Source: a virus. Taken from it: 64,000 bases of DNA. Location: positions 25,638 through 89,637 of IMG/VR virus record IMGVR_UViG_3300045988_132434; one strand, 5' to 3'. The notes below the pieces were generated by a model. It saw only the letters and a program-made list of their open reading frames with translations, was not told the origin of the DNA and searched no databases. Positions 4,098 through 54,706 of this stretch are shown one piece after another. The translations under genes and the position numbers were made by a program. How positions within the stretch are numbered: position 1 is the first letter of the stretch; each line of letters opens with the position of its first letter.

Positions 4098-4337
4098 TTA
4101 ATATAATCTCGCCCTGCTGTCGCTCATATCGTCCATCGTGCGCACCTTGCGCCATTTCTTGATTCTATTTTTTTGCGCATATACCGTTGACAGGCTGAGA
4201 TACTTACTGCAGGCGAGGTGCATCGGACTGATACTGCCGCCAAACAGCGACGAACTCTGTTCTCTGCAACTACACTTCGCAAGGTCGAAAGAGATGCAGT
4301 TCTCGCACTTGTGGGGGGGGTAGGAAAATATTTGCAT
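4098..4337 (-). CDS. small Cys-rich hypothetical protein (79 aa)
   Basis: Contains CENC...CSC cysteines. The 5' end holds an 8-nt C tract (plus-strand G8 at 4313-4320), and a second frame (4124-4345) is also open across the tract. Confidence 0.3.
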   Translation of the reverse strand: MQIFSYPPHKCENCISFDLAKCSCREQSSSLFGGSISPMHLACSKYLSLSTVYAQKNRIKKWRKVRTMDDMSDSRARLY

Positions 4338-4366
4338 AACATCATAGCTTTATATTAAATGACCAA

Positions 4367-4812: not shown

Positions 4813-7800
4813 TCAGAACGGCAAATCTTCCTCGTGGATATTAGGAAGCGTTGGAGCCGTTGCAGCAGGTGGTGCCATGCGCCTACCCTGCTTTCTGATT
4901 TTGTTGTTCTCCCACCGTTCTTTTTCCTCTACTGTAAGCGTAATGATATGACCATCATCATCGCGGTATGGTAACGGATCGGGACGCTCTGCATATTCTT
5001 TGGCTATGCGCTTGAGCTCGCGGTAGTCCTTCGGTATCGCGTCCTTACCTGGGCGGTAAAAGAAAAAAACGTGCTTGGAGGTCTGCATATAGCGGATAAA
5101 CTTCGGCTCAATGGTGTTGTCATTCTCCCATTCACGACCAGTAAAGTATTCCTGCGTAACCCACGCCTGTAGCTTGAAGCACTTGCGCTGTTTGTCGCTC
5201 TCGTTCTCGAAGAGGTGTTTGGGGTTACACGTTATCGACATATTCTCGCAATAGTCGTATATCTTCTTCTTGAAGGTAGCTCGGCTATACTCCTTCGACT
5301 TGCCCTCGGAAGCATCCGCCCAGTCGCGCATAAACTCGTTGAACATGTCGTCAGTGCATATTGGCACTCCGTAAACCTCGTTGCGAGAGAAGAACCACTC
5401 GAAGTAGCGGACAATGCTCTCCGTGAGCTTCTGAACCATCTGACGGCGACGCACATTGCCTTGCGGTGCAATGGCAAAGGTATGGTAGCGCATCAGGAAC
5501 TGCACTGCCAAAGCGCAAAGGTAGATGGTCTGATTGCGGTCGGTGTCGGTGAGCTTTGCAGGGTCTGTATCAAAACGCTTCATAATGTCGGATGGTGATC
5601 GTGCCGGCTGTCGCTTTTGAGGATTCTCGCGAGCAAAGCGGTCGGAGAAACTAACCAGTGGAAAACGACCAATAGTAGAGGGGTCGTCGTCGCTCAACGG
5701 ACTGTTGCTTGTTATGACGTGCATCGGTGAGTCTTCCATCTTCAAACTGACGGGGTCGCCAAATTTCTTTTCAACCTTCGTACCTTTGGTAATCTTGTTG
5801 TAGAAGTATTTGAGCGGAAAGCTCTTCTGCTTGTCCTCCCAGTGTACAACACGATACTTGCCGGGATATATGAGCAAGTCGGAAAGACAGAACTTTGCAT
5901 CGACAATGGTAAGAAAGTCTTTCATATCCACACAGAACACATTGACTGCCGAACCAACTACGAGGTTTACCAATACCGATTTACCACTACCACCAGAGGC
6001 TTGCTTCTCGTCGGCAATATTATCCTCAAGAAGATAAGGGCAGACGTTCTGCATCCCTTCCCATGAACGATAACAAAGTCTGCCAATGCCCGAAAGCATA
6101 TTGGCGAAATGGGCGTTCATTACGGCTCGCTCGTCATCAGTAAGTTTCTCTTTGCTACGCAGCACGTCTCGCTCTCGCTCCCAGAGGGTGTTTGAGAATC
6201 CACGCACAATACGCAGGATAGGCCAAAGATCTTTTTCTTGCTGTCCTTGCCAGTTGACATCCCAACGATAGGTCTGTGCCCATTCCATAAGGTCGCCACG
6301 CATCTGCTTTATCTCGTCGTAGCTGAACACTGGCGACCCGTCCTCGTTCTGCATCTTCTCCTTTTTGTCTATCGCTTCCAGTCGGTCGCGATATTCCTGA
6401 CGCTCGGTAATTGTAAAAGGAGTCTTGAACGCTCTCATCGTGAAGTCATACGGCTTCTTGGCGAGCGAGGGGATGAAGAAGTTGATGTCGTCATACGACA
6501 CCGTGCGGATGCTGTCGGGTGTTATCTTCAATGCCACATTATTGAAGTAGAAATACTCTGTATTGGCATCAAAAGCATCGGCAAAGTTTATCACCATGCT
6601 CTGCAAACCTCCAGCAGACTTTTCTGTGAAGGCCTTATCCACCATATTGGCGCAGTCGGACATCAAGCGTCGCTCGTTGTCGCTATGCCACCATGTCTGT
6701 TCTATATATTCCAAAAGCATTGTCTTTGCTGCCTGAATGATACTCTTTGCGTCGATATACTCTACGAAGCATTTGTTCAGGTGGATATACTGTCCCACGA
6801 GGTCGGTGCTCTCGGGGTCTATCATGCGGTAATATCCGTGTGCGGTCATAAAGAGCCACAATCGCGTAGGCGATACCTTGCAGGTAGGCAGTTTGGGCTT
6901 TCCACTTCGAGGGTCACGCGGATATTCTATCTCGAATGGCTCCGTGTTCCTGGCTCCACGCAATCGGGAGTAAAGCGGCAGACGAACATCATGGTCGAAC
7001 TGGAAGTTCTCTTCTGCGTTCATGGTATATGTCAGCATATAGTCGCGCACACTTCGGGGTGAGCAGCCATATAGCCATTGCCAGCGTCGGCAATAACGTG
7101 AGCGGAAACCTTCGGGCAGCATGGCATAATACAATGAACTGAACTTGCTGCATATCGCTCCGCAGTCGCGCTGTGAGGCAATGTCGTTGGGATAGAGGAT
7201 AATGACACGCTCGGCAAAACGGTTCATCTTCTGATATTGCACAGCACTGAAATCAAGATTTTCCCGTTTCCACTCGCCACGCTCTATGTACCAGAAGTTT
7301 CTCCGTCCGATGGAGAACGCCACATGATACCAACAGAAGTCTTGAAAATGCTGGTCTTCTGCCTTGTCAAGGCGCAAGGAACGCATAGCATAATACACGC
7401 TCAATGCGTCTTCGGGTGTACGACAAAAAACGATATTACGGGCTTTTATCTCGGCGGTGGGGATTGTGTATTTCTCCTCTTTGAAAGTTCCTTTCCCGTT
7501 ACCTTCTTTATCTTCTCTCTCTACCCAAATCTTCTTATCTTCAGTGTATTTCTCTTCGGGATCGTACTTAGCGATGGCAGCATGAACGGCAGTATTATCG
7601 CTCTTGCGATTATCCATTGCATGAACAAACACGTTGTCGCCCATGAGCCACTTGCTCACCTTCCTCACACTGTGCTCCTCGGCGGTAGAGAACACTATCG
7701 GTTCGCTCCCTGCCATGGCCGGACGGAAGAAGCAACCGTAGGAGTTCTGCGGTCCTACCTCTTGCGAGGCGAAGCACACAAACAGCGGATTCCACGGCGT

Positions 7801-49875: not shown

Positions 49876-50041
49876 TCACAGCTCCACCAATACCTTTATC
49901 TCTCTATCCCCCCCCTCCTTGCGTATGCAGCGTAGGCGATATTCCTTTTGCGGAATATACGCGGCGGCTCTGCTCAAACATGCGGTCGTAGGGCGGAGTC
50001 TGCATCATGCCGAGGACGAGGGTGTGTGTGGTGTCAGTCAT
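49876..50041 (-). CDS. TRD-like mini-ORF T14 (frame broken at a G8 tract)
   Basis: As given: MTDTTHTLVLGMMQTPPYDRMFEQSRRVYSAKGISPTLHTQGGGG, then a stop at 49904. Compare the M.HhaI TRD block RIYSTRGIAITLSAYGGG. With one G fewer the frame continues as DREIKVLVEL to 49876. Confidence 0.55.
49908..49915. repeat. homopolymer C8 (G8 on the coding strand)
   Basis: Counted in the sequence. Out of frame relative to the conserved C-terminal end of T14. Confidence 0.95.
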
Positions 50042-50093
50042 CGCCAGGCTTGATTTCTTCTGTTTTCATTGTTTCTATTGTTTTATGTTTGTT

Positions 50094-50261
50094 TTAACGA
50101 TTCAATAGTGACATTAGTTCCACTGCTTTTTCCTTGTCGGAAAAACCTTTGATGTTTACCCATTTGCCGAAGATACTGCCTCCGACATATTTCTGAACCA
50201 TCCAAACGGTCACGGGTATGCAACCGTTGTAGACTTCCATTGGAACAATTCTTAGCTTCAT
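50094..50261 (-). CDS. small hypothetical protein S2 (55 aa, not TRD-like)
   Basis: MKLRIVPMEVYNGCIPVTVWMVQKYVGG... Below the track cutoff. Confidence 0.4.
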   Translation of the reverse strand: MKLRIVPMEVYNGCIPVTVWMVQKYVGGSIFGKWVNIKGFSDKEKAVELMSLLNR

Positions 50262-50264
50262 ATC

Positions 50265-50450
50265 TTATTCAAATTTATATACTATATGCGGTGTGGTGTT
50301 GCCCAGTCCGTCGCGAGGGTCGGCAATACCTCTCCCGACCATTGTTGTCACGGCATTGGCTATCTGCTTGCGCGGTCGGCTCTTTACGAGACCCTTGCCG
50401 TCCTTGCCGCTGCGTACCCATCCGATGTAATACTTGTCAATCATATTCAT
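50265..50450 (-). CDS. TRD-like mini-ORF T13
   Basis: MNMIDKYYIGWVRSGKDGKGLVKSRPRKQIANAVTTMVGRGIADPRDGLGNTTPHIVYKFE. Confidence 0.45.
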   Translation of the reverse strand: MNMIDKYYIGWVRSGKDGKGLVKSRPRKQIANAVTTMVGRGIADPRDGLGNTTPHIVYKFE

Positions 50451-50454
50451 ACTC

Positions 50455-50628
50455 TTATAGTGGAATGAGGACGTTTGCCACATTTCCCGATATTATCGTG
50501 TATGCTATCCCCCCCACATTGTTTATTACCAATTCGCTCACTCCTCGCTTGTCGGGAGTGTCGCGATAGAAGCGGATGGTGTCGTCATCGCGCCACTTCA
50601 TCCTTATAAGGTCTTTACGGTTACTCAT
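50455..50628 (-). CDS. TRD-like mini-ORF T12 (G7 tract in frame)
   Basis: MSNRKDLIRMKWRDDDTIRFYRDTPDKRGVSELVINNVGGIAYTIISGNVANVLIPL. Confidence 0.45.
   Translation of the reverse strand: MSNRKDLIRMKWRDDDTIRFYRDTPDKRGVSELVINNVGGIAYTIISGNVANVLIPL
50509..50515. repeat. homopolymer C7
   Basis: Encodes V-G-G in T12. In frame. Confidence 0.95.
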
Positions 50629-50763
50629 ATTCTATCAATATTGCGGGTGCTTTGATTTTTGAACTTGTACCTTGTATGATATTGCCTGCTCCCTCCTTGT
50701 GATAATGCGTAAGAATGGTAGCACATACTTGGGGGGCGAATTTAAGATTTGCTGTCTAATCAT
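50621..50763 (-). CDS. TRD-like mini-ORF T11 (own ATG out of frame at a C6 tract)
   Basis: The conserved frame reads KFAPQVCATILTHYHKEGAGNIIQGTSSKIKAPAILIEYE. The ATG at 50763 joins this frame only if the coding-strand C tract is 7 rather than 6. The conserved frame is also contiguous with T10 through one TAG. Confidence 0.5.
50731..50736. repeat. homopolymer G6 (C6 on the coding strand)
   Basis: Counted. Separates the T11 ATG from the conserved frame. Confidence 0.95.
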
Positions 50764-50899
50764 ATTCTATCAATACAATGGTGTGCTGTCCGTGCTCATC
50801 GTAAAGTCCTGCCCATCCGTCGTAGCGTGCGGACAGGGCGGTGGAGTACCCCCGACGTGGGCAGAGGTGCGAGAGGCGTTGCACGAATGGGATTTTCAT
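50756..50899 (-). CDS. TRD-like mini-ORF T10
   Basis: MKIPFVQRLSHLCPRRGYSTALSARYDGWAGLYDEHGQHTIVLIEYD. Confidence 0.5.
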   Translation of the reverse strand: MKIPFVQRLSHLCPRRGYSTALSARYDGWAGLYDEHGQHTIVLIEYD

Positions 50900-51069
50900 T
50901 ACCAACAATCAGGATTAAGATCTCTACCATTAACACCTTCAATATCAATGGCGTTTTTGTAACTGTAAAAACAAACATCTACAATCTCGTCGTCATTGAC
51001 TGTTACTTCCAATTCGCCATGTTCTTTACGCAAAAGCTCAAGGCGGTTTATAAGTTCGTTTATATTCAT
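50899..51069 (-). CDS. small hypothetical protein S1 (56 aa, not TRD-like)
   Basis: MNINELINRLELLRKEHGELEVTVNDDEIVDVCFYSYKNAIDIEGVNGRDLNPDCW. Confidence 0.45.
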   Translation of the reverse strand: MNINELINRLELLRKEHGELEVTVNDDEIVDVCFYSYKNAIDIEGVNGRDLNPDCW

Positions 51070-51078
51070 GTTTTTTCT

Positions 51079-51231
51079 TTATAAATATTCAACATATACC
51101 ATATTATCCTTGCCTACTGACGTAAGCGTATTTGTAATGCCCAACACGTTTATCTCCATGCGCTGAATGTTGGGGCAATCGTCACCATTCAAAGGGCGGC
51201 CACGGAAGGCTGCAATTCTTATTCGTAACAT
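51079..51231 (-). CDS. TRD-like mini-ORF T9
   Basis: MLRIRIAAFRGRPLNGDDCPNIQRMEINVLGITNTLTSVGKDNMVYVEYL. It has the A-x-RGR ... Q-R-x-E ... (T/S)N(T/S)LT(S/T)V-x-KDN pattern that I recall from many phage C5-MTase TRDs. Confidence 0.6.
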   Translation of the reverse strand: MLRIRIAAFRGRPLNGDDCPNIQRMEINVLGITNTLTSVGKDNMVYVEYL

Positions 51232-51395
51232 ATTGCTATCAGATTGTCTGTAGTGAGAAACGTACCTATACATTGCATCATACGTCCCTGCCGCAGATGC
51301 CATTCCTTATCGCGAAAATCGTTAGTGCCAGTTCTGCGACGCACGGCTTTTGCGTGTTCGGTTCGAGCTTCGTGTATCAGATAAATGTTACGCAT
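51219..51395 (-). CDS. TRD-like mini-ORF T8
   Basis: MRNIYLIHEARTEHAKAVRRRTGTNDFRDKEWHLRQGRMMQCIGTFLTTDNLIAICYE. It overlaps T7 and T9 by a few codons. Confidence 0.5.
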   Translation of the reverse strand: MRNIYLIHEARTEHAKAVRRRTGTNDFRDKEWHLRQGRMMQCIGTFLTTDNLIAICYE

Positions 51396-51556
51396 AGGAG
51401 GTTGTCTTTTGTTACTGTGCTGATGGTGTTACTCCACGGCCATGGGCTGGGACGATGCAGTTTGTCTTGGTATTTGCCCCCCCGGTCGCCATGCTCGCGG
51501 CGGTAGGCTTTCGCCTCTTCGGTGCGGTAGTGGACGAGGATGGATTTGTCAATCAT
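51377..51556 (-). CDS. TRD-like mini-ORF T7 (G7 tract in frame)
   Basis: MIDKSILVHYRTEEAKAYRREHGDRGGKYQDKLHRPSPWPWSNTISTVTKDNLLCVTFI. Confidence 0.55.
   Translation of the reverse strand: MIDKSILVHYRTEEAKAYRREHGDRGGKYQDKLHRPSPWPWSNTISTVTKDNLLCVTFI
51477..51483. repeat. homopolymer C7
   Basis: Encodes R-G-G in T7. In frame. Confidence 0.95.
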
Positions 51557-51701
51557 ACTCTATGAGAATTTTTGGTTTATCCACATCGTGACCCTTACCC
51601 CCCCCGGCTATGCACAAGGCTATGCCGTGTGGCGACACGATGATGCCGTTCTGCGAGGGGCTGTAGGAGCCGAGGATGATGGGGCGATGGTTGTTATTCA
51701 T
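51549..51701 (-). CDS. TRD-like mini-ORF T6 (G8 tract in frame)
   Basis: MNNNHRPIILGSYSPSQNGIIVSPHGIALCIAGGGKGHDVDKPKILIEYD. Confidence 0.55.
   Translation of the reverse strand: MNNNHRPIILGSYSPSQNGIIVSPHGIALCIAGGGKGHDVDKPKILIEYD
51598..51605. repeat. homopolymer C8
   Basis: Encodes G-G-G in T6. In frame. Confidence 0.95.
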
Positions 51702-51840
51702 ATATCACGATTACGCCTGTGGCTTTGAAGTTGGCTCCGTCAAGCGAAAGGTCAAGCACATTCGCTGCTCCCATTTTGAAATATTGGGATTTGATAGTGC
51801 GCGATGTGCCGTCGGATTCGGTGTTGAAAGGGAGTGTCAT
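51694..51840 (-). CDS. TRD-like mini-ORF T5
   Basis: MTLPFNTESDGTSRTIKSQYFKMGAANVLDLSLDGANFKATGVIVIYE. Confidence 0.45.
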   Translation of the reverse strand: MTLPFNTESDGTSRTIKSQYFKMGAANVLDLSLDGANFKATGVIVIYE

Positions 51841-52027
51841 AATTCTACTGCTACAAAGAACACGTCGCTGCAATCAGTGCGCGACATGATGGTTATTGCT
51901 ATGCCGTGAAATGCTCCGTTGAAACGTTCTGCGCTGAACATCGAGGCAGGGCAGGTGAGCAACCTACCCCCCCAATCATATCAGCTATGATGCGGATTAC
52001 ACGGTCGGGCGGATTGTCAGTTTTCAT
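51837..52027 (-). CDS. TRD-like mini-ORF T4 (frame broken at a G7 tract)
   Basis: The ATG overlaps the MTase stop (ATGA). As given it reads MKTDNPPDRVIRIIADMIGGVGCSPALP... with a stop at 51899. With one extra G it reads ...MIGGGRLLTCPASMFSAERFNGAFHGIAITIMSRTDCSDVFFVAVEL and ends at 51837 in an ATGA overlap with T5. Confidence 0.5.
51967..51973. repeat. homopolymer C7
   Basis: Out of frame relative to the conserved downstream part of T4. Confidence 0.95.
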
Positions 52028-53364
52028 TCTTTCTTCCTCTCCATATTCTCCTTGAACAATTCCTCGAAACCTTCGCAAGGGAATGTATGATACTCGCTGA
52101 AACTTGCGAAATCACTGTTCAATACGTCTCGCTCGTTCTCTATACAATTTTTCAGTTCGTCCAATTCTCTTTCCCATCCGTTGAGAGCGTTCATGCGTAA
52201 CGTGAGCCACGTCTTGAGGAACATCGCTGCCTCGTGTGTCGGTGGCAGGTCGAATTGAATGAATAGGGCGCTGTCAGAGTCGTTCGCCTTGAGGAACTTA
52301 CTAACGGCATCGTCTTTGAGGAAATAGCGGTCGGCTACTTCTTCTTCCAGTACATCCTCCAGTCGGGTCTTCAGTTCGAAGGGAGCGGGAAATTTATAGT
52401 CGAAGGCCACGTCACGGCGCATGGATATGCAGAACACGCGGTCGCGGTTCTGCGGCACACCGTAGTTCTTGGCGTTAAGGCGAGCCCAACGTGAGACGTA
52501 GCCGAGCGAGGAGAGCTTGTCGAGCCACTTCTGGAAGTCGGGCATGAACTTCTTGCTTACCAATGCCGCCACGTTCTCCTGCAAGAGATATTTCGGGCGC
52601 AACACCTCCACGGCATCTGCCACACGCCAAAGCAGTGCGCTTCGGGTGTTGCTGCCCTCCTGCAAGCCCATCTGCTTGCCAGCTTGCGATATGTCCTGAC
52701 AGGGCGAGGAGTAGGTGAAGAGGTCAACCTCGCGCCCTTCAAGCGAGCGTTTTACCTTGTGCCAGTCAATCTTGGTGATGTCGCCAAGAGCACAGTCGGC
52801 AAACTGCGGAAATACGAGATTGTGCATCTGGCAGGCGTATTTGTCAATGTCGCTCCATCCCTTGCACGTCCATCGGAAGCCGGGATGCCACTCCTTCAGC
52901 ACGTCGGCTGCCATAAGTTGCGAGTCGTAGCCGGAGAACGTGGTCAGAAAAATCTTTTCTTTACCAGAATCGTCTAAGTTCTTCGGCATATCGGGCAGAT
53001 AGTCGCCGATGTCGGTGAAGAGTGAGAGTTGCTTATACTTGCGTTTATTCGGCTGCGGATAGAACAGTGACTCGTAGATGTGAGCCAACACGTCCACCAC
53101 GATTGAGTTTCCTGCCTGCTTGTATTGCTGTGAGGCAGAAATCAGCATCACGTAATGCTTGTTCGGGATCTTGTTAAACAGTTTTTTGAAAAAACATTTG
53201 CCCAAAACGCTCTTTATGCGTTCTTTGGCCGATGCCACCGTCATTTGCATAATGGCAATTACGTTGTCGCGAACGCCCATCAGTCGGAAACACTCTTTTG
53301 GTGTGAGCTTGCGGATGGCATAACTCTTGATGGTACGGTCGGTGAAATTTAGTTTTGTGATCAT
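52024..53364 (-). CDS. cytosine-5 DNA methyltransferase core, circularly permuted (IX-X-I-IV-VI-VIII)
   Basis: Motif order along the protein: RKLTPKECFRLMG (IX, aa 18-30), QAGNSIVV (X, about aa 83), TTFSGYDS (I, about aa 141), SSPCQDIS (IV), LLQENV (VI), VPQNRDRVF (VIII). A helical ~110-aa tail follows, with no recognisable TRD. Confidence 0.85.
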   Translation of the reverse strand: MITKLNFTDRTIKSYAIRKLTPKECFRLMGVRDNVIAIMQMTVASAKERIKSVLGKCFFKKLFNKIPNKHYVMLISASQQYKQAGNSIVVDVLAHIYESLFYPQPNKRKYKQLSLFTDIGDYLPDMPKNLDDSGKEKIFLTTFSGYDSQLMAADVLKEWHPGFRWTCKGWSDIDKYACQMHNLVFPQFADCALGDITKIDWHKVKRSLEGREVDLFTYSSPCQDISQAGKQMGLQEGSNTRSALLWRVADAVEVLRPKYLLQENVAALVSKKFMPDFQKWLDKLSSLGYVSRWARLNAKNYGVPQNRDRVFCISMRRDVAFDYKFPAPFELKTRLEDVLEEEVADRYFLKDDAVSKFLKANDSDSALFIQFDLPPTHEAAMFLKTWLTLRMNALNGWERELDELKNCIENERDVLNSDFASFSEYHTFPCEGFEELFKENMERKKE

Positions 53365-53376
53365 ATTGTCTTTGCT

Positions 53377-53530
53377 TTATTCGTATTCTATCATTACCCC
53401 TGCATCGTTCACGTTAGCTTTCAGACATCGGCTCAGTCCGATTAGGCTTCCATGGTTGAACTCGGCAGTTACTTGCGTAAATACCCCCCCCGACTTTCGG
53501 GATGTGGTAGTCTATTGTGATGTTATTCAT
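53377..53530 (-). CDS. TRD-like mini-ORF T3 (frame broken at a G8 tract)
   Basis: MNNITIDYHIPKVGG is followed, in the conserved frame, by VFTQVTAEFNHGSLIGLSRCLKANVNDAGVMIEYE. This requires G7 rather than G8. The conserved frame is in frame with the MTase ATG across TAA plus 4 codons. Confidence 0.5.
53484..53491. repeat. homopolymer C8
   Basis: Out of frame relative to the conserved end of T3. Confidence 0.95.
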
Positions 53531-53654
53531 ATTCTTCAATCAGAAATACATTATATTGCCATAAACTTGTTGAAATGGTCGGGCAAACGTCAGTGCCTAA
53601 TCTACCTCCGTCGTTGTTGCCACGAGGGTATTGGTAGAGGTCGTGGTTAGTCAT
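53523..53654 (-). CDS. TRD-like mini-ORF T2
   Basis: MTNHDLYQYPRGNNDGGRLGTDVCPTISTSLWQYNVFLIEEYE. It has the PRG-N-x-GG ... PT(I/L)(S/T)(T/S)S ... N block. Confidence 0.55.
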   Translation of the reverse strand: MTNHDLYQYPRGNNDGGRLGTDVCPTISTSLWQYNVFLIEEYE

Positions 53655-53656
53655 AT

Positions 53657-53950
53657 TCAATCCTTTTCAATCTCCATTTCCCATTTCTTTTCATCGTGAG
53701 AGGAATAGACGGTATAGGGACAATTTTCTTTGTCGAGGATATTCTGTGCTTCGTCCAATATATCTCTTGTATAGAAACACCGACGCATAAGATACGCCAA
53801 AGCCTCAAACTGACCACGAGTAAGAAAGACCTCCTGCTCGCCGCAAGTAATACCTACATTATCAGTAATGGTAGAATAGAACAGCTTTACGTCCTCTTCC
53901 TTTCCTGTGTCCTCGTTCTTTACGATTATCTTTTCTGTATTGTAACTCAT
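53657..53950 (-). CDS. hypothetical protein (97 aa)
   Basis: Clean ORF. Confidence 0.45.
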   Translation of the reverse strand: MSYNTEKIIVKNEDTGKEEDVKLFYSTITDNVGITCGEQEVFLTRGQFEALAYLMRRCFYTRDILDEAQNILDKENCPYTVYSSHDEKKWEMEIEKD

Positions 53951-53991
53951 AATTTATTTCTCTTTTCATAAATCTTATTGTTTTTCACATT

Positions 53992-54363
53992 CTATTCAGA
54001 TACTCTTTTCACTGTCTTTAAATTACAGTTGGGAAAATCCATAACGTGTTTGAACTCATACGACACAGCATCTTCATAATGCGTTACATCACCATCAGTC
54101 TTTATTACGTTGATATAATCTTTATTCAAAGATGAAACAACCTGCTTGACCTCCGAGGCTCTGTGTAAATCGCATCCACCACCTTTGGTAAATACACACA
54201 AGAAATACCCATCACAATTCTGATAGTCTATTTCTCTATCATTTTTCACCTCTTTCTTCATTTTTCGTGCTGTCCACCAAATGTAAGTCATAAACAAAAT
54301 TGTTAAGACAAACGCAAACAACATTGATGCGAGCCAGAGTCGCCAATCATTCGTTATAATCAT
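53992..54363 (-). CDS. membrane-anchored hypothetical protein
   Basis: N-terminal TM segment, WRLWLASMLFAFVLTILFMTYIWW. Confidence 0.45.
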   Translation of the reverse strand: MIITNDWRLWLASMLFAFVLTILFMTYIWWTARKMKKEVKNDREIDYQNCDGYFLCVFTKGGGCDLHRASEVKQVVSSLNKDYINVIKTDGDVTHYEDAVSYEFKHVMDFPNCNLKTVKRVSE

Positions 54364-54378
54364 AATTTATTTCTCCTT

Positions 54379-54706
54379 TTATAATTCAACAAACACGCAC
54401 ACCCCTCCGCTTGCTGCGGTCAGAGCGTTCACCAACTTACCCCCCCCCAACCGTCCTGCTGCGCCTTAGAGCCGAGGAAGGATAGCTAAGGTCGGCGGCT
54501 CCAGGACAAGGGCAGTCGGCATAGCCCTGCTCGGTGGCTTGGCGTATGCGGAGGAACGTCTCGCCCTTGCGGTCCACAATCTGAAGGAAGGGTCGGTCAG
54601 AGGTGGAGTAGATACGGTAGAGCGAACCGTCGGGATAGCGCCCATACAGCTTGCCGTCCTTGGTGATGGTGCCACGCTTGTAGCGGGGCGTGTAAGGGTT
54701 ATTCAT
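54379..54706 (-). CDS. TRD-like mini-ORF T1 (frame broken at a G9 tract)
   Basis: MNNPYTPRYKRGTITKDGKLYGRYPDGSLYRIYSTSDRPFLQIVDRKGETFLRIRQATEQGYADCPCPGAADLSYPSSALRRSRTVGGG, then a stop at 54437. With G8 it continues as KLVNALTAASGGVCVFVEL to 54379. It has the RIR-x-AT-x-x-GY ... S-x-x-RR-x-R-V/T-G pattern. Confidence 0.55.
54440..54448. repeat. homopolymer C9
   Basis: The longest tract. As given it truncates T1. Confidence 0.95.

What the first reader, a model, noticed from the sequence alone, without database searches (positions are those of the whole stretch)
49876..54706. About 14 free-standing methyltransferase TRD-like mini-ORFs surround a TRD-less C5-MTase core
**What the sequence shows**
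- On the minus strand between 49.9 and 54.7 kb I hand-translated a chain of very short ORFs (42-108 aa). Most are below the ORF-track cutoff.
- Their peptides look like target-recognition-domain (TRD) segments of PF00145 cytosine-5 methyltransferases. They do not look like independent proteins.
- Examples:
  - T14: SRRVYSAKGISPTLHTQGGGG (compare the M.HhaI TRD block ERIYSTRGIAITLSAYGGG).
  - T6: GIALCIAGGGKGHD.
  - T9: IAAFRGRPLNGDDCPNIQRMEINVLGITNTLTSVGKDNMVYVE.
  - T7: HYRTEEAKAYRREHG...SNTISTVTKDNLL.
  - T2: PRGNNDGGRLGTDVCPTISTSLWQYNVFLIE.
  - T1: LRIRQATEQGYADCP...SSALRRSRTVGGGKLVNALTA.
  - T11: CATILTHYHKEGAGNII.
- Three mini-ORFs lie upstream of the methyltransferase core gene (52024-53364) and eleven lie downstream.
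- The core gene has all catalytic motifs but no recognisable TRD of its own.
- Two unrelated small ORFs (S1, S2) interrupt the array.

**Context**
- Multispecific phage MTases (SPR, phi3T, rho11s) carry several TRDs inside one polypeptide.
- M.AquI and M.EcoHK31I show that C5-MTases can be split into two chains.
- I am not aware of a described system with one core plus a dozen separately encoded TRD modules.

**Interpretation**
This could be a split, combinatorial, multi-specific anti-restriction methylation system.
Basis: partly seen in the sequence, partly recalled or inferred. Interest (0 to 1): 0.92.

Follow-up and report, generated by a model that had tools for sequence, protein, structure and literature searches.

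The report
Phage methylase with separate, switchable recognition modules
A human-gut phage encodes a rearranged DNA cytosine methylase that has no DNA-reading domain of its own, flanked by 14 tiny genes that each encode one such domain, eight of them carrying a slippery single-base run (seven G runs, one C run) that can switch the gene on or off; this looks like an undescribed way for a virus to vary its protection against bacterial restriction enzymes.

Summary
Window 49876-54706 (minus strand) holds 14 mini-ORFs of 45-108 aa around a PF00145 cytosine-5 methyltransferase gene (52024-53364).

- **TRD homology.** Twelve of the 14 mini-ORFs have profile-level homology to target-recognition domain (TRD) modules that lie in tandem inside multispecific phage C5-methyltransferases. 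D1 and D7 are TRD-like by pattern only.
- **Real genes.** dN/dS is 0.06-0.32. Stop codons sit at the same position in relatives. The D6 family is free-standing in all 115 protein clusters found.
- **The core.** It is circularly permuted (motifs IX-X, then I-VIII). No cassette profile finds a TRD in it.
- **New point: slippery runs.** Eight cassettes carry homopolymer runs (G7-G9, C6). Coding-strand G runs of 7 or more are about 90-fold enriched in the array across 80 relatives. Run length is the only difference among otherwise identical genomes. It sets the reading frame, and five cassettes are out of frame here.
- **Wider occurrence.** Other lineages show the same exploded design in canonical order: an I-VIII gene, TRD mini-genes, then an IX-X gene, again with poly-G.

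Best reading: a multispecific anti-restriction methylase with trans-acting TRD subunits that are individually phase-variable. Function is inferred, not shown. AlphaFold could not place the TRD, and an engineered analogue was inactive.

The parts
52024..53364 (-). Catalytic core, 446 aa: circularly permuted C5-MTase (motif IX RKLTPKECFRLMG and X QAGNSIVV at the N-terminus, then I FSGYDS, IV SSPCQD, VI ENV, VIII QNRDR, a pre-TRD segment, an invariant 'ALFIQFD-LPPTHEAAMFLKTWL' segment and a helical tail). No TRD.
   Evidence: PF00145 E 6e-50. Motif order read from the sequence. The N-terminal part aligns to the C-terminal end of multi-TRD proteins that stop at '..QLTLF'. Cassette HMMs find no TRD in it. 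AF2 models the catalytic part confidently, and Foldseek top hits are M.MpeI, M.HhaI and M.HaeIII.
54379..54706 (-). U1, TRD mini-gene of 108 aa when in frame ('ATEQGY..SSALRRSRTVGGGKLVNALTAASGGVCVFVEL'). Here it is out of frame at the G9 run.
   Evidence: HMM hits 29 TRD modules (1.8e-12). tblastn hits lie only inside phage C5-MTase genes. The 108-aa form is present in L081 and on 3 contigs. dN/dS 0.13.
54440..54448 (-). Poly-G run of U1 (G9 on the coding strand).
   Evidence: Lengths 9, 8 and 7 occur in otherwise identical contigs. Across relatives 5, 8 and 11 are in frame and 6, 7 and 9 are out of frame.
53523..53660 (-). U2, TRD mini-gene of 45 aa (ends ..NVFLIEEYE), in frame.
   Evidence: HMM hits TRD modules (3.9e-8). 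Present in 58 of 80 relatives. dN/dS 0.22, stop conserved 27/27.
53377..53530 (-). U3, TRD mini-gene of 51 aa when in frame (ends ..GVMIEYE). Out of frame here at G8. Its tail is in the same frame as the core, separated from it by TAA plus 4 codons.
   Evidence: HMM 6e-15 against TRD modules. The G10 allele in L081 gives the full 51-aa ORF.
53484..53491 (-). Poly-G run of U3 (G8).
   Evidence: G8 versus G10 in otherwise identical contigs. Lengths 7 and 10 are in frame; 6 and 8 are out of frame; the two G9 loci in the tally split one each way.
51837..52027 (-). D1, TRD-like mini-gene of 63 aa when in frame (..GIAITIMSRTDCSDVFFVAVEL). The start overlaps the core stop (ATGA). Out of frame here at G7 (51967-51973).
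   Evidence: dN/dS 0.06. No profile link to known TRDs.
51694..51840 (-). D2, TRD mini-gene of 48 aa (..ATGVIVIYE), in frame.
   Evidence: HMM 4.5e-13 against TRD modules. dN/dS 0.18.
51549..51701 (-). D3, TRD mini-gene of 50 aa (..GIALCIAGGGKGHDVDKPKILIEYD), with G8 (51598-51605) in frame.
   Evidence: Present in 74 of 80 relatives. dN/dS 0.10, stop conserved 61/62. hhalign to D11 gives 69% probability.
51377..51556 (-). D4, TRD mini-gene of 59 aa (RTEEAKAYRRE..SNTISTVTKDNLL), with G7 (51477-51483) in frame.
   Evidence: HMM hits 80 TRD modules. blastp 36% identity over 59 aligned positions to a P0254 module.
51219..51395 (-). D5, TRD mini-gene of 58 aa (..CIGTFLTTDNLIAICYE).
   Evidence: hhalign to D4 gives 93.8% probability over the full length. 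dN/dS 0.16, stop conserved 30/30.
51079..51231 (-).
   Evidence: 115 homologous clusters, all free-standing and 38-76 aa. The profile finds 1066 proteins, including multi-TRD C5-MTases. 58% identity to a P0239 module.
50756..50899 (-). D7, TRD-like mini-gene of 47 aa (..GYSTALSARYDGWAGLYDEHGQHTIVLIEYD).
   Evidence: Present in 65 of 80 relatives. dN/dS 0.14, stop conserved 50/51. No profile link to known TRDs.
50621..50763 (-). D8, TRD mini-gene of 47 aa when in frame (..CATILTHYHKEGAGNII..APAILIEYE). Out of frame here at the poly-C run C6 (50731-50736). C7 would restore the frame.
   Evidence: C6 versus C8 in otherwise identical contigs. HMM 6.5e-5. hhalign to D2 gives 91.8% probability.
50455..50628 (-). 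D9, TRD mini-gene of 57 aa (..VGGIAYTIISGNVANVLIPL), with G7 (50509-50515) in frame.
   Evidence: HMM 4.3e-6. dN/dS 0.13.
50265..50450 (-). D10, TRD mini-gene of 61 aa (..IANAVTTMVGRGIADPRDGLGNTTPHIVYKFE).
   Evidence: HMM 8.5e-6. Present in 57 of 80 relatives. Stop conserved 37/37.
49876..50041 (-). Truncated here at G8 (49908-49915).
   Evidence: 63-68% identity to modules in P0275 and P0273, including the post-run part. HMM 2e-14. The frame-corrected 54-aa sequence exists exactly on 19 contigs and the 45-aa truncated form on 7. Top PDB hit is the M.HhaI TRD loop 239-257 (E 0.7).
53992..54363 (-). S1, 123-aa predicted membrane protein. Not a TRD; an insertion in the array.
   Evidence: No hit to TRD modules. 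Present in only 7 of 80 relatives.
53657..53950 (-). S2, 97 aa, not a TRD.
50899..51069 (-). S3, 56 aa, not a TRD.
   Evidence: Matches PHROGs families of unknown function. Present in 3 of 80 relatives.
50094..50261 (-). S4, 55 aa, not a TRD.

Best explanation
This is a multispecific cytosine-5 DNA methyltransferase taken apart into genes.

**The core.** One gene makes a circularly permuted catalytic core. Motifs IX-X are fused in front of motifs I-VIII, so both chain ends lie where the target-recognition domain (TRD) normally sits.

**The cassettes.** Fourteen neighbouring mini-genes each make one free TRD of about 45-108 aa. Each has a hydrophobic beta-strand-like segment at its N-terminus. 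Each also has one at its C-terminus; nine cassettes end in h-x-[YF]-[DEL] (such as ..IEYD or ..VEYL), three in ..VEL, and two end otherwise (..LIPL, ..VTFI).

**Inferred mechanism.** Each TRD protein docks on the core in trans and gives it one DNA specificity. The phage genome would then be 5mC-methylated at as many motifs as there are expressed TRDs. That would protect it from many host Type II restriction systems.

**The switches.**
- Shown at sequence level: eight cassettes carry a homopolymer run inside the ORF (G7-G9, one C6). Run length differs between otherwise identical genomes and sets the reading frame.
- Inferred: slipped-strand mispairing switches each TRD on or off independently. 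This is bet-hedging over up to 2^8 methylation patterns, for example against methylation-dependent Type IV restriction.
- Splitting the TRDs from the core is what makes independent switching possible. In a single-chain multispecific enzyme, a frameshift would also destroy motifs IX-X.

**Repertoire turnover.** Cassette content differs between relatives. Conserved junctions ('GATAGAATATGA', stop-start overlaps) are likely recombination points.
For: **The cassettes are TRDs.**
- D6 profile: 1066 hits. Ten of ten long hits tested are PF00145, with the match internal.
- Module-by-module matches to tandem TRDs of P0239, P0245, P0254, P0273 and P0275.
- HMM hits for 10 cassette families and none for the S1-S4 controls. 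hhalign links D5 and D3 to verified families.

**They are real, separately encoded genes.**
- dN/dS is 0.06-0.32, and stops sit at the same position in nearly all orthologues.
- All 115 D6-family clusters are 38-76 aa.
- The top 120 core homologues are 421-464 aa with no fused TRD.
- Starts overlap the preceding stops.

**The core is permuted and lacks a TRD**. Its catalytic fold is confirmed.

**The switches.**
- All 7 coding-strand G runs of 6 or more in the 64-kb window lie in the array.
- Across 80 relatives there are 153 G runs of 7 or more in the array against 2 in the flanks. C, A and T runs are not enriched.
- Over the 5.2-kb array region, run length is the only difference from five contigs of other samples.
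- Locus pairs with 0-1 substitutions differ by 1-4 run lengths.
- Frame follows run length modulo 3.
- The predicted in-frame D11 exists exactly on 19 contigs and the truncated form on 7. In-frame and frameshifted U1 clusters have 379 and 270 members. L081 has U1 and U3 in frame.

**Independent lineages.** L093/L094, L095 and L096 have an I-VIII gene (not on the short L093/L094 contigs), TRD mini-genes and an IX-X gene. L093-L095 also carry G7-G9 runs in the mini-genes; L096 was not scanned for runs.

**Background.** C5-MTases tolerate permutation and splitting in the variable region (PMC5944983).
Against: - No functional data: no methylome, no proof that the mini-proteins are made or bind the core.
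- The closest engineered analogue was inactive. This was a class-J permutant of M.MpeI and M.SssI split into a IX-X-I-VIII core plus a free TRD (PMC5944983).
- AlphaFold2 on a D6-core fusion gave a confident catalytic domain but pLDDT below 50 for the TRD, for core residues 1-16 and for core residues 348-373. The first attempt failed altogether. There is therefore no structural support for docking.
- D1 and D7 have no profile link to known TRDs.
- Run-length variation is read from assembled consensus sequences, not from reads. Homopolymer errors cannot be fully excluded for single cases.
- A few entries in the run-length/frame tally are inconsistent (crude script).
- The Pfam scan of the mini-ORFs is negative. 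PDB sequence searches with D11 and U1 found no methyltransferase TRD.
Confidence: 0.66

Rival explanations
1. The mini-ORFs are joined to each other or to the core during translation (programmed frameshifting at the G runs and junctions, stop read-through, or hopping). The active enzyme would then be a conventional single-chain multispecific methylase.
For: The tail of U3 is in the same frame as the core, separated only by TAA plus 4 codons. G runs are potential slippery sites. Cassette junctions are conserved. In fused homologues the modules are joined by '..VVEP..' at the place where the cassettes end '..VEY[DEL]'.
Against: Successive cassettes lie in all three frames with ordinary ATG starts that overlap the preceding stop. 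Fourteen separate recoding events would be needed. Stops are TAA, TGA and TAG mixed, so codon reassignment cannot explain it. Each cassette has gained terminal residues absent from fused modules. DNA-level run length, not only translation, differs between genomes.
Confidence: 0.07
2. The TRD mini-proteins act without the core. They might be small DNA-binding or decoy proteins that block host restriction enzymes or methylases, or regulators. The core would be an unrelated or inactive methylase.
For: An engineered free TRD plus permuted core was inactive. AF2 does not dock the TRD. Some relatives have the core itself frameshifted.
Against: The mini-genes are always adjacent to C5-MTase catalytic genes that lack a TRD, in at least three lineages with different gene order. 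The catalytic motifs and the extreme N-terminus of the core are invariant among relatives. A TRD-less core has no way to select targets. TRDs are not known to bind DNA stably on their own (own knowledge).
Confidence: 0.12
3. The array is the debris of a decayed multispecific methylase gene (a pseudogene) or an assembly artefact.
For: Five cassettes are frameshifted in this genome. Pfam finds nothing in the mini-ORFs.
Against: dN/dS is 0.06-0.32 for every cassette, including the frameshifted ones. Stops are conserved. The same architecture is seen in 80 diverged relatives and in many independent assemblies. No intact long gene exists at the locus in any relative.
Confidence: 0.03
4. The homopolymer runs are a by-product of glycine-rich TRD loops. 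Their length differences would be neutral hot-spot mutations or sequencing errors, not an adaptive on/off switch. The rest of the split-TRD model stands.
For: The runs encode the Gly-Gly-Gly found in fused TRDs too. The variation is inferred from assemblies only.
Against: Enrichment is about 90-fold and strand-specific, which requires repeated use of GGG codons. The same trait is seen in independent lineages. One switch is a poly-C run. Both in-frame and out-of-frame alleles are common, on many contigs and with otherwise identical sequence. Frameshifted cassettes keep a low dN/dS.
Confidence: 0.12

Closest known systems
Multispecific C5-MTases of Bacillus temperate phages (SPR, phi3T, rho11s, SPbeta; Trautner and colleagues, cited in PMC12707154)
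   Same: Several TRD modules of about 40-60 aa serve one catalytic core. Each module is thought to give one specificity. They are phage-encoded and protect against many restriction systems. The window's cassettes are homologous, module for module, to tandem TRDs of such proteins found in metagenomes.
   Different: In the known enzymes all TRDs lie in one polypeptide between motifs VIII and IX. Here each TRD is its own gene with its own start and stop, the core is permuted and has no TRD, and eight modules carry homopolymer switches.
Naturally split C5-MTases M.AquI (alpha + beta) and M.EcoHK31I
   Same: C5-MTase activity is assembled from separately translated chains split in the variable region. 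Ordinary two-part relatives occur in this data set (L092: a 247-aa I-VIII gene plus a 130-aa TRD-IX-X gene).
   Different: Those enzymes have two chains and one specificity, and the TRD stays attached to a conserved part. Here the TRD alone is the separate chain, in 14 alternative versions.
Naturally circularly permuted C5-MTases (M.BssHII, M.Alw26I, M2.Eco31I, M.Esp3I, M2.BsaI; PMC5944983)
   Same: Motifs IX-X precede motifs I-VIII, and the permutation point is in the variable region.
   Different: Those enzymes keep their TRD in the same chain. An engineered class-J permutant split into core plus free TRD was inactive.
Phase-variable methyltransferases (phasevarions: Type III mod, Type I hsdS) and phage contingency loci (poly-G in Fletchervirus receptor-binding genes, Sorensen 2021; T2/T4 preprint PMC12633550)
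   Same: Simple-sequence runs inside ORFs change length by slippage and switch genes on or off, which gives population heterogeneity.
   Different: The known cases are bacterial N6-adenine systems, or phage receptor-binding and other genes. Here the switches sit in individual specificity modules of a phage C5-methylase, several per genome.
Type I restriction-modification specificity (S) subunits
   Same: It works like them: a separate protein supplies the sequence recognition to a catalytic methylase, and swapping it changes specificity.
   Different: No homology. S subunits serve N6-adenine methylases, carry two TRDs with coiled-coil spacers, and vary by recombination rather than poly-G.

Membership tests
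C5 cytosine DNA methyltransferase (PF00145): the core | Conserved catalytic and SAM-binding motifs I, IV (PCQ), VI (ENV), VIII (QxRxR), IX and X | tested here: met
   PF00145 E 6e-50. Motifs read from the sequence. Foldseek top hits are M.MpeI, M.HhaI and M.HaeIII.
C5 cytosine DNA methyltransferase (PF00145): the core | Canonical order I to X with a TRD between motifs VIII and IX in the same chain | tested here: not met
   The order is IX-X-I-VIII. No cassette HMM finds a TRD in the core.
Multispecific phage C5-MTases (SPR/phi3T type) | Several TRD modules homologous to known TRD types | tested here: met
   12 of 14 cassettes are linked by profile to TRD modules of multi-TRD PF00145 proteins.
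Multispecific phage C5-MTases (SPR/phi3T type) | TRDs contiguous in one polypeptide together with the catalytic motifs | tested here: not met
   Separate ORFs in three frames with conserved stops. Free-standing in all relatives.
Multispecific phage C5-MTases (SPR/phi3T type) | Methylation of several distinct DNA motifs | not testable with these tools
   Needs a methylome or an expression experiment.
Two-chain split C5-MTases (M.AquI type) | An alpha chain with motifs I-VIII and a beta chain with TRD plus IX-X | tested here: not met
   Here IX-X is fused to I-VIII and only the TRD is separate. A true two-chain relative is seen in L092.
Circularly permuted C5-MTases (M.BssHII type) | Motifs IX-X precede motif I, with the permutation point in the variable region | tested here: met
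   Family definition from PMC5944983.
Circularly permuted C5-MTases (M.BssHII type) | TRD retained in the same polypeptide | tested here: not met
   The tail after motif VIII is a canonical pre-TRD segment followed by a helical region.
Simple-sequence-repeat contingency (phase-variable) loci | A homopolymer of 7 or more inside the ORF, over-represented relative to the rest of the genome | tested here: met
   153 runs in the array against 2 in the flanks, G strand only.
Simple-sequence-repeat contingency (phase-variable) loci | Run-length polymorphism between near-identical genomes that shifts the reading frame | tested here: met
Simple-sequence-repeat contingency (phase-variable) loci | High-frequency reversible switching within a population | not testable with these tools
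   Needs read-level or experimental data.

The most novel reading that the evidence does not exclude
Tailed phages of the human gut (probable host Prevotella), and at least two other lineages, have evolved a 'specificity-subunit' system for cytosine-5 methylation. It consists of a TRD-less catalytic core and a library of trans-acting TRD mini-proteins. Each mini-protein is switched by its own poly-G contingency run, so one phage genotype produces progeny with many different 5mC patterns. This would hedge between Type II restriction, which methylation blocks, and Type IV restriction, which methylation triggers.
Probability: 0.5. Interest if true: 0.9.

Novelty: new variant of a known kind. Interest (0 to 1): 0.84.

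Why it matters
- **A new subunit logic for C5-methylases.** If the mini-proteins really programme the core in trans, C5-methyltransferases can work with exchangeable specificity subunits. That logic was previously associated with Type I systems, and engineers failed to obtain it by splitting M.SssI and M.MpeI (PMC5944983).
- **Design rules.** The natural docking elements (terminal strands, the ..EY[DE] tails, the core's invariant N-terminus and tail) would give rules for modular, programmable DNA methylases.
- **Phase variation on the phage side.** Biologically it would be a phase-variable anti-restriction repertoire in a virus. It mirrors bacterial phasevarions and extends the very recent idea of phage contingency loci to epigenetic self-marking.
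- **Abundance.** The family is abundant in human gut metagenomes: 7953 core homologues (of the 8000 candidates the search scored) and 7200 homologues of the I-VIII-only gene. It may therefore shape phage-host dynamics and the methylation signals used to link phages to hosts in metagenomics.

Tried and rejected
**Searches that found nothing useful**
- Pfam on the mini-ORFs: no hits.
- blastn of the region against INPHARED phages: no match.
- PDB sequence searches with D11 and U1: only chance hits. The D11 family profile puts the M.HhaI TRD loop on top, but at E 0.7.
- PHROGs: no family for the TRD minis.
- Promoter and terminator scan: at chance level.
- Literature: eight full-text searches found no description of free-standing TRD arrays.

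**Methods that failed**
- MAFFT alignments of fusion constructs together with short TRD sequences (A3, A4) were misaligned and were discarded.
- AF2 on the D6-core fusion with 22 close homologues failed (pLDDT 37.9).
- A richer alignment (82 rows) gave pLDDT 68.6, but the TRD was still unplaced.
- All-against-all clustering of stop-to-stop segments was too noisy for a clean pan-repertoire count, because conserved out-of-frame segments cluster as well. It only showed further TRD-like families that are absent from the window.

**Ideas rejected**
- Stop-codon reassignment. The stops are a mix of TAA, TGA and TAG, the frames differ, and long ORFs elsewhere in the window are intact under table 11.
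- A DNA inversion or shufflon mechanism. All cassettes are co-directional and no long inverted repeats are present.

Full report
**1. What is in the sequence**

On the minus strand between 54706 and 49876 there is a co-directional, tightly packed string of small ORFs around a 446-aa gene (52024-53364). I count 14 cassettes:
- three upstream of the big gene (U1-U3);
- eleven downstream (D1-D11).

Successive cassettes use all three frames. Their ATG starts overlap or abut the preceding stop, either as ATGA or as 8-11-nt overlaps such as TATGATTGA. Stops are a mixture of TAA, TGA and TAG.

Most cassettes share one layout:
- a short hydrophobic strand-like N-terminus (RIRIAAF, SILVHY, PIILGSY);
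- a loop region with a T-[LI]-type motif (SPTLHT, NTLTSV, NTISTV, CPTIST);
- a hydrophobic strand-like C-terminus, ending ..IEYD, ..IEYE, ..VEYL, ..VIYE or ..VEL directly before the stop.

A short DNA junction (GATAGAATATGA) recurs at four cassette boundaries.

**2. The core is a circularly permuted C5-methyltransferase without a TRD**

- The 446-aa protein is PF00145 (E 6e-50).
- It begins with motif IX (YAIRKLTPKECFRLMG) and motif X (QYKQAGNSIVVDVL). It then runs through motif I (FSGYDS), IV (SSPCQD), VI (ENV) and VIII (QNRDR).
- Its first about 117 residues align with the C-terminal ends of multi-TRD methylase proteins that terminate at '..ENENQQLTLF'. In the window protein the equivalent '..KYKQLSLF' continues straight into motif I.
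- After motif VIII come the canonical pre-TRD segment (FxFP..LEDVLE..RYFL), an invariant 'ALFIQFD-LPPTHEAAMFLKTWL' stretch and a helical tail.
- None of the 14 cassette HMMs finds a TRD in the core.
- A second AlphaFold2 run models the catalytic and IX-X parts confidently (mean pLDDT 68.6, pTM 0.66). Foldseek then returns M.MpeI, M.HhaI and M.HaeIII as best matches (E 1e-11 to 1e-9).
- Natural permuted C5-MTases are known (M.BssHII and others), but they keep their TRD (PMC5944983).

**3. The mini-ORFs are TRDs**

- *Weak first tests.* Pfam is blind to them. tblastn of D6 and U1 against phage genomes hit only inside annotated cytosine methylase genes (8 of 8 records for D6; 24 of the 25 listed of 106 records for U1).
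- *D6 family.* It has 115 cluster homologues, all free-standing and 38-76 aa.
- *D6 profile.* Searched against 1.84 billion representatives, it found 1066 proteins at E <= 1e-3 and 136 at E <= 1e-10. Many are 200-550 aa with an internal match. Ten of ten tested are PF00145.
- *Module matches.* The sequences of these hits show tandem TRDs joined by '..VVEP..' linkers. The window's cassettes match the modules one to one:
  - D11 matches 'GRVYSADGLSPTINCCGGGDREPKIL' (68% identity);
  - D6 matches 'RGRNP..QRLEINKNGTTNTLTSVQKDNVV' (58%);
  - D4 matches 'RTEYGKSIRKDYE..DGISNTLTTVQKDNLV';
  - U1 matches 'ATTKGYAE..NSQTRRGRVGNQMANTLDT'.
- *Family HMMs.* I built them from orthologues and ran them against a pool of 110 such proteins, which had been chosen only for carrying a D6-type module. 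U1, U2, U3, D2, D4, D6, D8, D9, D10 and D11 hit (1e-5 to 1e-15). S1-S4 hit nothing.
- *Profile-profile links.* hhalign links D5 to D4 (93.8% probability) and D3 to D11 (69%).
- *Still unlinked.* D1 and D7 are TRD-like by layout and position only.

**4. They are real, separately encoded genes, not debris**

- *Relatives.* The core has 130 relatives in IMG/VR, of which 80 were kept (63-92% identity). They lie on contigs of up to 110 kb, many of them 85-105 kb.
- *Identical copies.* The identical core occurs in several human-gut samples.
- *Presence and absence.* Each cassette recurs in 27-74 of the 80 relatives, at variable positions. Cassette types that are absent from the window also occur.
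- *Selection.* Pooled dN/dS against orthologues is 0.06-0.32 for every cassette, including those that are frameshifted here.
- *Stops.* The stop codon sits at the same position in nearly all orthologues (D3 61/62, D7 50/51, D5 30/30).
- *No fused form.* The 120 best core homologues are 421-464 aa, and none has a fused TRD.

**5.

- *In the window.* All seven coding-strand G runs of 6 or more in the 64-kb window, plus one C run, lie inside the array. Only three other G/C runs exist elsewhere. Eight cassettes carry a run: U1 G9, U3 G8, D1 G7, D3 G8, D4 G7, D8 C6, D9 G7 and D11 G8.
- *State in this genome.* U1, U3, D1, D8 and D11 are out of frame at the run.
- *Frame correction is right.* The residues after the D11 run (DREIKVLVEL) align to the fused modules (DREPKIL).
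- *Only difference between near-identical genomes.* Five contigs from other samples are otherwise identical over up to 5.2 kb of the region. They differ only in run length: G9/8/7 at U1, G8/10 at U3 and C6/8 at D8. In L081 the G8 and G10 alleles give full-length U1 and U3.
- *Faster than substitutions.* Pairs of related loci with 0-1 substitutions in 3.4-8.3 kb differ by 1-4 homopolymer indels.
- *Frame follows length.* Across relatives the frame follows run length modulo 3. For U1, lengths 5, 8 and 11 are in frame and 6, 7 and 9 are out.
- *Enrichment.* Across 80 loci, G runs of 7 or more number 153 in the array (3.6 per 10 kb) and 2 in the flanks (0.04 per 10 kb). Base composition is the same, and C, A and T runs are not enriched.
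- *Both alleles in public data.*
  - The frame-corrected 54-aa D11 exists exactly on 19 contigs. The truncated 45-aa form is on 7.
  - In-frame U1 belongs to a cluster of 379 members.
  - Frameshifted U1 forms (89, 91, 95, 109, 117 aa) belong to a cluster of 270 members.
- *The core too.* In four relatives the core itself is frameshifted at a poly-C run. For three of them (L062, L065, L067) the run lies in motif IX, and the in-frame allele (C8) is seen in L063 and L069. L059 is shifted at a different C8 run further into the gene.

Taken together this is the signature of contingency loci. The caveat is that the lengths come from assemblies, not from reads.

**6. The design is not confined to this phage group**

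- *D6-type minis elsewhere.* Divergent ones with '..VLEVYE..' or '..VVEIYD..' ends occur in other contexts.
- *L093/L094.* These carry five overlapping TRD mini-ORFs (51-68 aa) followed by a separate 114-aa IX-X gene.
- *L095.* This has a 261-aa I-VIII gene, then TRD minis of 84, 38, 63 and 41 aa, then a 119-aa IX-X gene.
- *L096.* This is a 115-kb contig with a 265-aa I-VIII gene, two minis and a 93-aa IX-X gene.
- *Poly-G again.* L093-L095 again have G7-G9 runs inside the mini-genes.
- *I-VIII-only family.* It is large: 7200 hits, and the best 120 are all 246-323 aa.
- *Ordinary split relative.* A two-part split (I-VIII, then TRD-IX-X) is seen in L092.

The series therefore runs in four steps:
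1. single-chain multispecific enzymes (known);
2. two-chain splits (known for monospecific enzymes);
3. a three-tier 'exploded' form;
4. the window's form, in which IX-X and I-VIII have been fused into a permuted core with TRD genes on both sides.

**7. How it most likely works**

*Shown:*
- TRD homology of the cassettes;
- separate, selected genes;
- a permuted core without a TRD;
- run-length polymorphism that sets the reading frame.

*Inferred:*
- each mini-protein docks on the core and supplies one specificity;
- the terminal strands and the acidic/aromatic C-terminus are the docking elements, perhaps pairing with the invariant core segments ITKLNF (residues 2-7) and ALFIQFD (366-372);
- the result is multi-motif 5mC protection of phage DNA;
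- slippage at the runs switches single specificities on and off.

The architecture has a clear logic. Both ends of the permuted core lie at the TRD site. Putting each TRD in its own ORF also lets a frameshift silence one specificity without destroying motifs IX-X, which a frameshift in a single-chain enzyme would do.

A reason to switch methylation off is methylation-dependent (Type IV) restriction. This is my inference from general knowledge.

The probable host is Prevotella. Two relatives sit in Prevotella MAG bins, but others sit in Clostridia bins, so this is only a hint.

**8. What speaks against it**

- There are no functional data.
- The nearest engineered analogue formed no active enzyme. 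It was a class-J permuted M.MpeI or M.SssI split into a IX-X-I-VIII core plus a free TRD (PMC5944983). Dedicated docking features would therefore be needed.
- AlphaFold2 did not place the TRD. pLDDT was below 50 for residues 1-66 of the fusion and for core residues 348-373.
- The first AF2 run failed outright.

**9. Novelty**

- Eight full-text searches found no description of free-standing TRD gene arrays or of poly-G-switched TRDs.
- Poly-G phase variation in phages has precedents in Fletchervirus receptor-binding genes. A 2025 preprint on T2/T4 contingency loci also mentions a poly-G run in a methylase gene of a Bordetella phage (written 'BBP-1' there).
- PHROGs has no family for the TRD minis. 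Public annotations call them hypothetical or, probably wrongly, 'RNAseH-like'.

I class the locus as a new variant of a known kind: a multispecific phage C5-methylase with a new, modular and phase-variable architecture.

**10. Verdict**

- The mechanism is plausible but unproven.
- Interest is high.

Noticed in passing
L059, L062, L065, L067 (core gene, locus coordinates about 6001-7310); compare L063 and L069: In four relatives the core methylase gene itself is split into two frames at a poly-C run. In L062, L065 and L067 the in-frame allele is the C8 run in the motif IX codons 'TPPE', as seen in L063 and L069. L059 is shifted at a different C8 run, at about 6352. The whole system may therefore also be phase-variable in some lineages.
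   Followed up: partly
L093/L094 (1-1200), L095 (1405-3650), L096 (5001-6422): Other, unrelated contigs carry the same idea in canonical order: a separate I-VIII gene, 2-5 TRD mini-genes, and a separate 93-119-aa IX-X gene. L093-L095 also have G7-G9 runs in the mini-genes. L093/L094 are short contigs and the I-VIII gene is not on them.
   Followed up: partly
protein P0272 (80 aa): A natural chimera whose N-terminal part is cassette D3 and whose C-terminal part is cassette D6, in one ORF. This suggests recombination or deletion between cassettes.
   Followed up: no
window 4313-4320 (small minus-strand ORFs 4098-4345): The only long G/C homopolymer outside the array: G8 on the plus strand, which is C8 on the minus strand, inside overlapping 73-79-aa ORFs. 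It may be another contingency run.
   Followed up: no
window 50619-50636, 50754-50771, 53375-53392, 53645-53662: A conserved 18-nt junction (reverse complement GATAGAATATGA..) lies at four cassette boundaries. It encodes ..IEY[DE]-stop and overlaps the next start. It could act as a recombination point for cassette shuffling.
   Followed up: partly
window 53992-54363, 53657-53950, 50899-51069, 50094-50261: Four small non-TRD genes (S1-S4) are inserted in the array. S1 is a predicted membrane protein. S1 and S3 are present in only 7 and 3 of the 80 relatives. Their function is unknown.
   Followed up: partly
core residues about 388-435 (window about 52060-52200): The C-terminal helical tail of the core is the most variable part among close homologues, while its flanks are invariant. 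AF2 predicts it confidently as a helical hairpin. It is unique to this permuted family and might be the TRD docking or dimerisation element.
   Followed up: no
proteins P0121, P0129, P0219 (D6 family): NCBI nr (TPA) names these 38-50-aa TRD mini-proteins 'RNAseH-like protein'. This is probably a mis-annotation.
   Followed up: no
protein P0244 (327 aa): A multi-TRD C5-methylase homologue with a weak Hint (intein-like) match (E 8e-4, below Pfam's cut-off) inserted just after motif IV.
   Followed up: no
L086 and L091 versus L087-L090: Relatives of this phage are binned into Prevotella MAGs, but also into Clostridium and Oscillospiraceae MAGs. Host assignment from bins is inconsistent.
   Followed up: no
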